Part shown: piece after piece, positions 18,401-21,400 of the stretch
How the letters are laid out: each line of letters begins with the position of its first letter
Position numbering within the stretch: the first letter of the stretch is position 1
Assembly (NCBI RefSeq): GCF_902652985.1
Contig: NC_047020.1
Coordinates: forward strand, 4,340,001 to 4,404,000
From: Pecten maximus
Lineage: Eukaryota
Length of the DNA stretch: 64,000 nt
Direction of reading: 5' to 3'
Position numbers: made by a program

Positions 18401-21400
18401 TAGGATGTCTTACAATGCAGACTCGTATCTATCATGCATGGAAAGGTCATATATAGTTCAATGTCATGTAGAGGTCAATCCGTACACAACAGCCCCAAAT
18501 CACAACAAGATACATTATTTTGTAGGTTACAATTACATAAGGAACATAAAAATTCATATTCGGAATAGATAGTTTGTAGTGTAATACATGTACATTTCAA
18601 CATTGTTTTTATTTGTTCAAAGTCTCAGTATTCTTTCAATTGTTTTGCTACATTGTGTATAGATCAAGATATTTTGTTTGATTATATTCAATTACACCCT
18701 ATATCACAATATACAACAGGTGGATTATTAAATACATATCAACTATTTGGCAACAATTGTCATTAGATATACTGTAATTAATTAACACGAGTAAAATATT
18801 CATTTACAAATGATAGACCTTTTAGTTACATCCAACTATATTATATATGTTATGATTTTTTTTCGTAGCTCATCATTTTGTATTATATTACAGTCTACCT
18901 GTGTCATCGTTTTGTATTATATATTACAGTCTACCTGTATCATCATTTTGTATTATATATTGCAGTCTGCCTGTATCATCATTTTGTATTATATTACAGT
19001 CTACATGTATCATCATTTGTATTATATTACAGTCTACATGTATCATCATTTTGTATTATACATTACAGTCTACATGTATTATCGTTTTGTATTATATTAC
19101 AGTCTACCTGTATCATCATTTTGTATTATATTACAGTCTACCTGTATCATCATTTTGTATTATATTACAGTCTACCTGTATCATCATTTTGTATTATATT
19201 ACAGTCTACCTGTGTCATCATTTTGTACTATATTACAGTCTACCTGTATCATCATTTTGTATTATACATTACAGTCTGCCTGTATCATCATTTTGTATTA
19301 TATTACAGTCTACATGTATCATCATTTTGTATTATATTACAGTCTACCTGTATCATCATTTTGTATTATATTACAATCTACCTGTATCATCATTGTGTAT
19401 TATATTACAATCTACCTGTATCATCATTTTGTATTATATATTACAGTCTACCTGTATCATCATTTTGTATTATATTACAGTCTACCTGTCGTTCTAACAA
19501 AGGGAGCGCACATGGCTATTTTTTGGCGGGAAAGAACATGCACTGGATACCAGTATGTGGATAATACATTGTATCATGTACCTTAAAGAGATTTGTCACT
19601 AGTTCTTGTCGATATTCTTAACTTATACATTGTATATTGTTTACGATTTTCCAGGGCACATTTATGTGGGACAGCTCATGCCATCTGTACAAATAAGTTT
19701 ACCAAATCTGTCCTGCTTTTCAATAATTAAGGTGGATATGGATTATTGATATTGATACATTTAATGTAAACTGAATTTTTACTTTTATTTTGTTATTTTG
19801 ATTTTACAATTGTGATATGATATATTGTCTTGTGATTGCAGTAAGGTTATTCTATGACAGCAGCAAATGAACTGCCGGGTCAGACTGACAAAATAATTTT
19901 CGCACAGAAAAAAAAATTCTACTGAAAGATATTGAGCTCTTTGAAATTGAAAATATATATCTAATACAAATGTATGTTACGATTTTCAAATACAGTATAC
20001 GCGCTTTCATTCTAGGAGAATATGTTCATGGATATGTATGCGCCTGTTAATTCTAGATTAATGAATATGTAAGTTTGTATACCCGTAGGTTGGGGCCTCC
20101 ATATTCGCTAGTAACATTGGAGCGCCGATGTTTATTGGAATTGCAGGCTCCGCCGCTGCCTCAGGGATTGCCGTCATCATTTACGAGTGGATAGTCAGTA
20201 TCCGTTATCTATATGCTTAATGTGCTACGAACGTCATTCATTTGATCATTTTGAAGAATATTTTCTGGTCAAAATGTTTAATATTCAACTTATATCAAAA
20301 GGATGAAATTTTTGCTGCATTTTTATCGTCTACATTCTGTTCTATCTAAATAATTGCACCATCATTTAACAACATTTTCAAAGAAATTGATATCACAAAA
20401 GCGTTCACGTTATTGTTTTGCATGTTTTTTCTATCTTTTAGGCAGTGTACTTCCTTGTTTTACTAGGATGGATATTTGTACCGGTGTACACATCATGTGG
20501 GGTAGGTGTTCTGCTCAGGTTTTTTTTACTTTTATGTATACAAATGACAGGAAGAAGATATATCTTGTATATTGAAAACGTAAAAATAGGCACGAATATT
20601 TTTTATCGAGTTTCGTATCTGATTTAGATATATTCCCTTTTATTTCTTCTATAGGCTTTTACAACACCGGGGTACCTGAGGAAAAGATATGGAGGAAAAC
20701 GGATAAGAATCTACTCGTCCATATTTGCTCTTATTGGATTCGTTCTGTTCAATATATCCGTATGTAATAGACAGAGAAGATGTACATTCTTTTTGTAGAA
20801 ATTCGAATTGGTAGTCAATCCTAAATTCATTCGTATGTGGATAGAATATCATAAACAAAATATTAAAACAACACAGGTGTACACAAGTTGTAATTAAAAC
20901 TAAATGTATACAAACATTAACAACAACAATTTATAACCATATCGTTAATCAACATTCACTTGTTGTAAGGTACGAAGTTTCATCGGAGTATCTTACAGTA
21001 TCTCTATACTTTCAGATTGAGATTTACTCCGGCGGGGTGTTCCTGAAGCAATTGTTAGGCTGGAACATGTATCTGTGTGTAGTCATCATTCTTTTTGTGA
21101 CAGCGGTGTACACTATTGTAGGTAAGGATTTATATTGTCAGGGCGGTGTACAACATTATAGGTAAGGAGTCCTATTGTAGGGCAGTGTACACTATTGTAG
21201 GTAAGGAGTCCTATTGTAGGGCAGTGTACACCATTGTGGGTAAGTAGTCCTATTATCACATCAGTGTACACCATTGTAGGTAAGGAGTCCTATTATCACA
21301 TCAGTGTACACCATTGTAGGTAAGGAGTCCTATTATCACAGCAGTGTACAACATTGTAGGTAAGTAGTTATATTATCACAGCAGTGTACACCATTGTAGG

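What the first reader, a model, noticed from the sequence alone, without database searches (positions are those of the whole stretch)
18870..19552. Acceptor array of SLC5-A is stop-free in all three frames and offers three in-frame alternative acceptors
Seen: the ~34-bp array has no stop codon in any + frame, and three overlapping ORFs span it. Copies of TTACAG|TCTACCTG with exon starts at 19103, 19205 and 19343 are in frame with exon 2. They would add 126, 92 or 46 hydrophobic Tyr/Ile/Cys/His-rich residues after the first TM. Most other copies would frameshift. Two copies near the true site (~19376, ~19410) have lost the AG (ACAA). Inference: a potential source of length-variable transporter isoforms, or evidence of strict acceptor choice by exon definition.
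Basis: partly seen in the sequence, partly recalled or inferred. Interest (0 to 1): 0.7.

Follow-up and report, generated by a model that had tools for sequence, protein, structure and literature searches.

The report
Splice-acceptor minisatellite in scallop SGLT gene
A 34-base piece covering the end of intron 1 and the first nine bases of exon 2 of a scallop sugar-transporter gene has been copied 18 times head to tail, leaving 15 look-alike spare splice acceptors upstream of the real one; the lack of stop codons is what chance allows, and nothing shows the spare sites are used.

Summary
Window 18870-19489 is an 18-unit, 33-36-bp tandem array with no stop codon in any + frame. It carries 16 AG acceptors, and 3 upstream ones are in frame with exon 2.

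The window is Pecten maximus. The gene is "sodium/glucose cotransporter 4-like", whose 14 exons map exactly.

The repeat unit is the last ~25 nt of intron 1 plus the first 9 nt of exon 2. The last unit is the annotated acceptor. Paralogs B and C keep a single copy of this junction.

The stop-free state is not beyond chance:
- 5.8-35% of shuffled units are stop-free, as are 7.4% of real intronic 34-mers.
- A 34-bp period reads one unit in all three frames.
- In-frame copies are not enriched (3 of 15).
- The AG loss is consistent with a single event.

No database protein contains the repeat peptide, and 21 mollusc homologs show no insert at this point.

Best reading: a neutral junction-spanning minisatellite of pseudo-acceptors. 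It mirrors the known human F7 IVS7-type donor minisatellites, with the exon-proximal copy chosen.

Four further arrays in the window span donor junctions. Actual splice-site usage could not be tested without RNA data.

The parts
18254..18331 (+). Coding exon 1 of SGLT-like gene A (26 codons, first transmembrane helix), followed by a GTAAGT donor at 18332
   Evidence: Exact mapping of P0001; sequence
18332..19480 (+). Intron 1 (1149 nt); its last 611 nt are the array
18870..19489 (+). Tandem array of 18 units of 33-36 bp. Each unit is about 25 nt of intron 3' end (candidate branch site, T-rich tract, AG) plus the first 9 nt of exon 2. No stop in any + frame.
19101..19102 (+). AG of an in-frame pseudo-acceptor (exon-like start 19103, +126 aa)
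19203..19204 (+). AG of an in-frame pseudo-acceptor (start 19205, +92 aa); identical to the true site from -25 to +9
19341..19342 (+). AG of an in-frame pseudo-acceptor (start 19343, +46 aa); identical to the true site from -25 to +9
19375..19376 (+). AA in place of AG (unit 15)
19409..19410 (+). AA in place of AG (unit 16, adjacent to unit 15, same G>A change)
19445..19446 (+). AG of the nearest pseudo-acceptor (start 19447, +34 nt). Its use shifts the frame onto the TAA at 19495.
19479..19480 (+). AG of the annotated (productive) acceptor, in the last unit of the array
19481..19552 (+). Exon 2 (24 codons); its first 9 nt belong to the repeat unit. GTATGT donor at 19553.
30898..30969 (+). Exon 2 of paralog B with a single-copy acceptor of the same type (ancestral state)
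38297..38368 (+). Exon 2 of paralog C with a single-copy acceptor of the same type (ancestral state)
21100..22298 (+). Related feature: 40-bp x 30 array whose first unit spans the exon 6 / intron 6 donor of gene A (exon end 21121)
41740..42661 (+). Related feature: 53-bp x 17 array whose first unit spans the exon 5 / intron 5 donor of gene C (exon end 41754)

Best explanation
This is a junction-spanning minisatellite. A ~34-bp segment covering the last ~25 nt of intron 1 and the first 9 nt of exon 2 of a Pecten maximus SGLT-type gene was duplicated in tandem and expanded to 18 units.

Only the right-most unit is continuous with the rest of exon 2, so the coding sequence is untouched. The 17 upstream units sit in the intron: 15 are intact pseudo-acceptors and 2 have lost their AG.

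Each unit carries its own candidate branch site, T-rich tract and AG. The core signals therefore cannot distinguish the true site. I infer that the spliceosome picks the exon-proximal (last) copy for two reasons:
- Only that copy is followed by real exon 2 sequence.
- Only that copy has the intron 2 donor 72 nt downstream, which allows exon definition.

The array is most likely neutral or mildly costly. Leaky use of a pseudo-site would give a frameshift at 12 sites, or a 46-126-residue hydrophobic insert at 3 sites in a loop whose length is conserved.

The stop-free frames follow from one stop-free 34-mer and a period that is not a multiple of three.

Shown: anatomy, origin from the junction, identity of the signals, annotated junction. 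Inferred: which sites are used and why.
For: **Unit structure.** Array coordinates and units are. Five units, including the true one, are identical over all 34 nt.

**Exon-derived part.** The first 9 nt of exon 2 are in every unit. They encode the conserved S-T-C start of exon 2 seen in paralogs and other bivalves.

**Ancestral state.** Paralogs B and C have one copy of the same junction type.

**Gene model.** P0001 (NCBI, Pecten maximus) maps exactly onto 14 exons using the 18331/19481 junction.

**Identical signals.** 7 pseudo-sites share the -20..+3 23-mer with the true site, and 4 share -25..+9.

**No masking structure.** RNA folding of 19270-19560 gives z = +0.36; 119 of 200 shuffles fold at least as well.

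**Stop-free state within chance.**

**No translated product.** No protein carries the repeat peptide, and 21 mollusc homologs show no insert.

**Same architecture elsewhere in the window.** It occurs at four donor junctions, and there the annotated proteins use the exon-proximal copy.

**Precedent.** Human F7 IVS7 has a minisatellite whose first monomer spans the exon-intron boundary, with identical silent pseudo-sites. IFI6 (6-16), CBS, LMNB2 and PDGF are listed as further cases (PMC1557585; abstract, Introduction and Discussion read).
Against: - No transcript evidence was available. The only support for the 18331/19481 junction is a database protein model, and I do not know what evidence underlies it.
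- The cluster of P0001 lists no transcript-assembly source.
- The nearest pseudo-site (-34 nt) keeps its AG.
- For IFI6 and CBS, the F7 paper reports that the two pseudo-sites nearest the authentic one are used. Some leaky use here is therefore quite possible.
- The classical view of 3' site choice, scanning from the branch point to the first AG, is cited as widely accepted in PMC1557585. It does not by itself explain why the last of 16 equivalent modules should win.
- Exon definition in molluscs is assumed, not shown.
Confidence: 0.7

Rival explanations
1. Isoform generator. The three in-frame pseudo-acceptors are used to make transporter isoforms with 46, 92 or 126 extra hydrophobic residues after the first helix.
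For: - The three in-frame extensions are stop-free and hydrophobic.
- Two of the three sites are identical to the true site from -25 to +9.
Against: - In-frame copies are 3 of 15, below the one-third expectation.
- Stop-freeness is within chance.
- The period of 34 means the peptide is the same unit read in three frames, not a selected coding repeat.
- No protein with the peptide was found.
- None of the 21 printed mollusc homologs has an insert at this point, and 27 of the 82 hits with the G-Y-F-L-A-G motif have it at the same index as P0001.
- The site lies at the start of a stretch that aligns without gaps to SGLT2 residues 43-66.
Confidence: 0.05
2. Decoy or dosage dial. A fraction of transcripts splice to pseudo-acceptors, mostly out of frame, and are degraded. 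Array length, which is probably variable between animals, would then tune how much functional transporter mRNA is made.
For: - 12 of 15 pseudo-sites shift the frame, and 6 of them hit the TAA at 19495 inside exon 2.
- Pseudo-sites are signal-identical to the true site.
- The IFI6 and CBS donor arrays show constitutive use of the nearest pseudo-sites (PMC1557585 Introduction).
Against: - Neither RNA data nor population data were available here.
- Paralogs B and C do without an array at this junction, so any such role is recent and gene-specific.
- A neutral array explains the same facts.
Confidence: 0.17
3. Assembly artefact. The copy number, or the array itself, was produced by mis-assembly of repeats.
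For: - The window has a 500-N gap at 32228-32727.
- Tandem repeats are a known source of assembly error (PMC6868369, seen only as a title and abstract start in the listing).
Against: - The array is only 620 bp and has unit variants in an ordered higher-order pattern.
- Unique sequence lies on both sides, with an intact exon 2 on the right.
- Comparable arrays occur at several other places in the window.
Confidence: 0.04
4. Dispersed satellite family that landed next to exon 2, rather than a local duplication of the junction.
For: The 34-bp unit and the 35-bp unit of the 3.9-kb array in gene C intron 11 share an 11-mer and align with local score 29. One of 300 mononucleotide shuffles reaches that score.
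Against: - With dinucleotide-preserving shuffles, 35 of 2000 reach the score. 28 unit pairs were compared, so this is not significant.
- The unit contains the conserved coding start of exon 2 and the same acceptor type as the single-copy paralog junctions.
Confidence: 0.04

Closest known systems
Human F7 intron 7 37-bp minisatellite (Borensztajn et al. 2006, PMC1557585; abstract, Introduction and Discussion read)
   Same: - A minisatellite whose terminal monomer spans an exon-intron boundary, so the authentic splice site is reiterated as pseudo-sites identical in sequence.
- The copy contiguous with the exon is the one used.
- Some in-frame pseudo-sites would not create a stop, yet they are not used.
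   Different: - The F7 array reiterates a 5' donor: the first monomer spans the junction and pseudo-sites lie downstream. This array reiterates a 3' acceptor module: the last monomer spans the junction and pseudo-sites lie upstream.
- F7 has 5-9 copies; this array has 18.
- F7 usage was measured with 50 constructs, whereas nothing is measured here.
- The 5'-to-3' scanning proposed for F7 would pick the wrong copy here.
Other human donor-junction minisatellites named in the same paper: IFI6 (6-16) intron 2, CBS intron 13, LMNB2, PDGF intron 4
   Same: - Reiterated splice sites in an intronic array that starts inside the exon.
- The three or four donor arrays in this window (21100-22298, 41740-42661, 59875-60080, 60713-61133) are direct counterparts.
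   Different: - All are donor arrays in mammals.
- In IFI6 and CBS the two nearest pseudo-sites are also used. That warns against assuming the scallop pseudo-sites are silent.
Tandem alternative acceptors (NAGNAG and other tandem splice sites; PMC2875228, PMC2423196 and bioRxiv 10.1101/2020.09.11.292722, seen as listing abstracts only)
   Same: Several AGs in tandem compete for one donor, and in-frame choices give small insertions or deletions.
   Different: Those sites lie a few nucleotides apart and share one branch point and pyrimidine tract. Here the AGs are 33-36 nt apart, and each has its own copy of the upstream signals.
Introns and alternative splicing arising from tandem arrays (Zhuo et al. 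2007 PNAS)
   Same: Tandem repeats that carry splice signals reshape gene structure.
   Different: - From recall, that work concerns arrays that supply new introns. Here an existing junction was multiplied and the gene model is unchanged.
- I saw this paper only as reference B62 of PMC2812944. The paper itself is not held, so its content is recalled.

Membership tests
Junction-spanning minisatellite with reiterated splice sites (F7 IVS7 type) | Head-to-tail array of a 10-100-bp monomer inside a gene | tested here: met
   18 units of 33-36 bp, 92% matches
Junction-spanning minisatellite with reiterated splice sites (F7 IVS7 type) | The terminal monomer spans an exon-intron boundary | tested here: met
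   The array ends at 19489, 9 nt inside exon 2, which starts at 19481 by exact mapping of P0001
Junction-spanning minisatellite with reiterated splice sites (F7 IVS7 type) | [quoted passage not shown] | tested here: met
   7 pseudo-sites are identical over -20..+3 and 4 over -25..+9
Junction-spanning minisatellite with reiterated splice sites (F7 IVS7 type) | The reiterated site is a 5' donor | tested here: not met
   Here it is the 3' acceptor. The feature is met by the arrays at 21100-22298 and 41740-42661.
Junction-spanning minisatellite with reiterated splice sites (F7 IVS7 type) | Only the exon-contiguous site (or it plus the nearest few) is used in vivo | not testable with these tools
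   No RNA data. The only indication is the database protein model.
Junction-spanning minisatellite with reiterated splice sites (F7 IVS7 type) | Copy number varies between alleles (VNTR) | not testable with these tools
   Only one assembly is available in the window
SLC5 / sodium:solute symporter family, SGLT branch (host gene) | Match to the family profile and to solved SGLT proteins | tested here: met
   - PF00474 is precomputed for P0001, which is 100% identical to exon 24952-25272.
- Exon 2 aligns to SGLT2 residues 43-66, E = 3.2e-4.
Functional alternative 3' splice-site isoforms | Transcripts or proteins that use the alternative sites | tested here: not met
   - No protein with the repeat peptide was found.
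- Transcripts themselves could not be tested.
Functional alternative 3' splice-site isoforms | Insert tolerated or conserved in relatives | tested here: not met
   None of the 21 printed mollusc homologs has an insert at this point
Coding tandem repeat | Period a multiple of three, with one frame kept open by selection | tested here: not met
   - The period is 34 (33-36).
- All three frames are open, consistent with the unit's composition.
- 8 of 10 substitution types are transitions, and only 1 of 34 possible transitions creates a stop.

The most novel reading that the evidence does not exclude
Splice junctions may be preferred seeds for minisatellites in the scallop genome. Five tandem arrays in this 64-kb window, in three genes, start or end inside an exon and reiterate its splice site. 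One of them is an acceptor array, for which four of my literature searches found no precedent.

If the exon-contiguous copy is always chosen, at donors and at the acceptor alike, these arrays are natural competition assays. They would argue for exon-anchored site choice rather than 5'-to-3' scanning. Leaky use of the pseudo-acceptors would also make array length a cis-acting dial on transporter expression.
Probability: 0.2. Interest if true: 0.6.

Novelty: new variant of a known kind. Interest (0 to 1): 0.4.

Why it matters
Donor-side junction minisatellites served as a natural model for 5' splice-site choice in human F7. This is an acceptor-side counterpart with 16 complete acceptor modules, several of them identical from -25 to +9.

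It poses a clean question. When the core signals are identical, does the machinery take the first site it meets or the one attached to the exon? A 5'-to-3' scanning rule and an exon-definition rule make opposite predictions here, and junction reads from existing or new scallop RNA data would decide between them.

The same window also holds matching donor arrays, so both site types can be tested in one organism. For annotation, such arrays are traps. Any of 15 pseudo-acceptors gives an open reading frame through the array, so an open frame there is not evidence of coding.

Tried and rejected
**Ideas tested and rejected**
- Selection for open frames. Rejected on three grounds. Shuffles and real intronic 34-mers give 5.8-35% and 7.4% stop-free units. 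Only 10 substitution types exist, 8 of them transitions, and my arithmetic from the counts gives about a 0.34 chance of no stop. It is 1 stop-free reading among 28 strand-readings of arrays.
- AG loss near the true site as purifying selection. Rejected. The two AA units are adjacent and share the same G>A, consistent with one event. By my arithmetic, the chance that at least one of 10 substitution types hits the AG is about 0.45.
- RNA structure masking the pseudo-sites. Rejected: z = +0.36.
- A known RNA family in the window. None found at gathering thresholds.
- Homology between the 34-bp unit and the 35-bp array of gene C. Not significant after 28 comparisons.
- The 36-bp arrays at 8570-10280 as a coding repeat. 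ORFs are broken on both strands; not pursued.

**Steps that could not be made or that gave nothing**
- Zhuo et al. 2007 is not held.
- Four literature searches for an acceptor-side junction minisatellite found none. The library lacks most subscription journals, so this is weak evidence of absence.
- Orthologous introns in other scallops could not be examined.
- No supplements were consulted.

**Spliced models.** Exons were searched one by one or as contiguous genomic stretches.
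Full report
**What is there**

The stretch 18870-19489 is a head-to-tail array of 18 units of 33-36 bp (period 34, 92% matches, with a 172-bp higher-order period). I cut the units in register and aligned them.
- There are only 14 distinct variant types. Ten are substitutions: 8 transitions and 2 transversions. The rest are a TA insertion in 5 units, a single-T deletion, and the left edge of the array.
- Five units, including the last, are identical over all 34 nt.

No TAA, TAG or TGA occurs in any + frame across the array. 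The bounding stops are at 18853/18866/18792 on the left and 19495/19562/19584 on the right. The minus strand carries 32-42 stop-like codons per frame over 18700-19700. Three stop-to-stop ORFs of 263, 213 and 231 aa overlap the array.

Sixteen units end in AG and two in AA; the AA units have exon-like starts at 19377 and 19411. Starts 19103, 19205 and 19343 are in frame with 19481. They would add 126, 92 and 46 residues rich in Tyr, Ile, Leu, Ser, Val, Cys and His.

**Organism and gene**

The translation of 24952-25272 is 100% identical to a 668-aa protein. NCBI names it "sodium/glucose cotransporter 4-like [Pecten maximus]" (P0001; PF00474 is precomputed for it). The window is therefore king scallop, not human.

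P0001 maps exactly, with GT-AG introns, onto 14 exons from 18254 to 26909. Exon 1 is 18254-18331 and exon 2 is 19481-19552.

A second protein, P0006, maps exactly onto a paralog, gene C (37083-51110). A third copy, gene B, shows exons 1-4 from 29730 to about 31878. A 500-N gap follows at 32228-32727, and I left it alone.

Exon 2 alone aligns to residues 43-66 of solved human SGLT2 (E = 3.2e-4). From recall of SGLT structures, the exon 1/2 boundary sits at the end of the first helix and the start of the loop leading to the first core helix.

Exons were searched one at a time or as contiguous genomic stretches. The joined spliced model was never sent to a search.

**What the array is**

The array ends 9 nt inside exon 2. 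Each unit is therefore the last ~25 nt of intron 1 plus the first 9 nt of exon 2.

Paralogs B and C have a single junction of the same type: the same TTACAG acceptor, followed by codons for the same S-T-C start. The S-T-(C/F)-R start of exon 2 is conserved across the mollusc homologs. The exon part is thus ancestral and the array copied it.

This is a duplicated splice junction, not an intronic repeat that happens to abut an exon. The right-most unit stays continuous with exon 2, which is why the coding sequence is intact.

Each unit holds a relaxed branch-site-like motif about 19-22 nt upstream of its AG and a T-rich tract. This comes from my reading of the unit; no strict yUnAy match is found. 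The pyrimidine content of -20..-3 is 0.67, in the middle of the 0.50-0.89 range of the 26 acceptors of genes A and C.

**Is the stop-free state meaningful?**

No. Because 34 is not a multiple of 3, each frame reads the same unit in all three registers. The only requirement is one 34-mer without a stop trinucleotide.
- That holds for 5.8% of mononucleotide shuffles of the unit and 35% of dinucleotide-preserving shuffles.
- It holds for 7.4% of 10,354 real intronic 34-mers of genes A and C outside arrays, and for 5 of 26 acceptor-junction 34-mers.
- Of the 102 possible single substitutions, 24 would create a stop, but only 1 of the 34 transitions would.
- With the observed 8 transitions and 2 transversions, the chance of no stop is about 0.34 (my arithmetic from those counts).
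- Among 14 arrays in the window read on both strands, this is the only one free of stops in all three frames. That is about what a 6-7% rate predicts.

In-frame pseudo-sites are 3 of 15, against an expectation of 5. They fall where the unit-length arithmetic puts them.

The two AG-less units are adjacent and share the same G>A, so one event is the simplest account. The chance that at least one of 10 substitution types hits the AG is about 0.45 (my arithmetic).

**Are the alternative sites used?**

I could not look at RNA. The indirect evidence points against functional isoforms.
- The database model uses 18331/19481.
- A search of the 90%-identity protein collection with the in-frame translation of 19103-19552, restricted to proteins of 264-2000 aa, returned only P0001, matching the exon 2 part (17% of the query).
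- A full scan of 1.84 billion representatives gave 2 weak hits. One is an ORF read through an exon 2 homolog elsewhere, and the other is an unrelated repetitive protein.
- Of the 120 proteins kept, 82 have the G-Y-F-L-A-G motif, and 27 have it at the same index as P0001.
- The 21 mollusc hits printed show the first helix running directly into the S-T-x-R motif in 20. The 21st has a different N-terminus. None has an insert.

If pseudo-sites were used:
- 6 shifted sites would meet the TAA at 19495.
- 6 shifted sites would run out of frame past exon 2.
- 3 in-frame sites would add a hydrophobic stretch.

**How choice probably works**

Seven pseudo-sites share the 23-mer from -20 to +3 with the true site, and four share -25 to +9. 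Core signals therefore cannot discriminate.

Predicted RNA structure does not stand out: z = +0.36, and the centroid pairs only within exon 2.

What differs is downstream. Only the last AG is followed by exon 2 proper and, 72 nt on, by the intron 2 donor. This step is inferred.

**Comparison with what is known**

The F7 paper (PMC1557585; abstract, Introduction and Discussion read) describes a 37-bp minisatellite whose first monomer spans the exon 7 / intron 7 boundary.
- Its pseudo-donors are identical, silent and demonstrably functional.
- It names IFI6 (6-16), CBS, LMNB2 and PDGF as further cases, all at donors.
- In IFI6 and CBS the two nearest pseudo-sites are also used.

The scallop array is the mirror image at an acceptor. 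Four searches found no acceptor-side case, but the library is incomplete.

The 5'-to-3' scanning proposed for F7 would choose the wrong copy here, whereas exon-anchored choice fits both orientations.

**Seen alongside**

Four further arrays in the window span donor junctions. Exon ends come from exact mapping of P0001, P0006 and P0123.
- Gene A exon 6 (end 21121): 40 bp x 30. All 30 copies keep GT and 18 are identical to the true site. 9 of the 29 downstream pseudo-donors are in frame, and none of those is stop-free.
- Gene C exon 5 (end 41754): 53 bp x 17. There are 16 donor copies, 11 of them identical. 7 of the 15 pseudo-donors are in frame, and none of those is stop-free.
- A CUB-domain gene ("exoskeleton protein RP43-like", P0123), exon end 59896: 87 bp x 2.3. 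The in-register copies have lost their GT.
- The same gene, exon end 60719: the junction 14-mer recurs 9 times against 0.49 expected, starting at the junction itself.

Three other arrays in these genes do not touch a junction. Under uniform placement of a one-unit seed that is not wholly exonic:
- P(at least 4 of 8) = 0.040 and P(at least 5 of 8) = 0.006.
- Adding four small low-scoring arrays gives 0.087 and 0.021, with 1.81 spanning arrays expected.
- For genes A and C alone, P(at least 3 of 6) = 0.054.

This test is post hoc and based on one window. It is a lead, not a result.

**Verdict**

The feature is real and correctly described. The stop-free frames, the in-frame sites and the AG losses carry no signal beyond chance.

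The interesting fact is that a whole acceptor module was multiplied across the intron-exon boundary. It is a new variant of a known kind. Whether the spare sites are silent remains open until junction reads are counted.

Noticed in passing
window 21100-22298: - A 40-bp x 30 array whose first unit contains the last ~22 nt of gene A exon 6 plus the donor.
- All 30 copies keep GT.
- Every downstream pseudo-donor would bring a stop or a frameshift.
   Followed up: yes
window 41740-42661: - A 53-bp x 17 array whose first unit contains the last 15 nt of gene C exon 5 plus the donor.
- Of 16 donor copies, 11 are identical to the true one.
   Followed up: yes
window 59875-60080 and 60713-61133: Two donor-junction arrays in a CUB-domain gene (exoskeleton protein RP43-like).
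- An old 87-bp x 2.3 duplication whose in-register copies lost their GT.
- A 33-bp array, with degenerate copies reaching back to the exon end at 60719.
   Followed up: yes
genes A, C and the CUB gene (18254-26909, 37083-51110, 59242-63754): - 4-5 of 8 tandem arrays (score at least 100) inside these genes span a splice junction.
- A uniform-seed null gives P = 0.040 for at least 4 and P = 0.006 for at least 5.
- The evidence is weaker when four small arrays are added (0.087 and 0.021).
- The test is post hoc and needs a genome-wide check.
   Followed up: partly
window 46050-49913: - A 3.9-kb array of about 106 copies of a 35-bp unit fills most of gene C intron 11 without touching either junction.
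- Its unit shares an 11-mer and about 70% identity with the 34-bp acceptor unit, but 35 of 2000 dinucleotide shuffles do as well.
   Followed up: partly
window 29730-31878 and 32228-32727: - Paralog B shows only exons 1-4 before a 500-N gap.
- No further SLC5 exons appear before gene C starts at 37083.
- It is either a truncated duplicate or broken by the gap. The gap was not filled or looked up.
   Followed up: no
window 16589-16781, flanked by 16429-16557 and 16841-17366: - A 33-nt inverted repeat pair (85% complementary, 127 nt apart), resembling a small foldback or MITE-like element.
- It sits between two related 46-48-bp tandem arrays just upstream of gene A.
   Followed up: partly
window 8570-8829 and 9038-10280: - Two arrays of a related 36-38-bp unit (34.5 copies in the larger).
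- The period is a multiple of three, but ORFs on both strands are interrupted, so the arrays are probably non-coding.
   Followed up: partly
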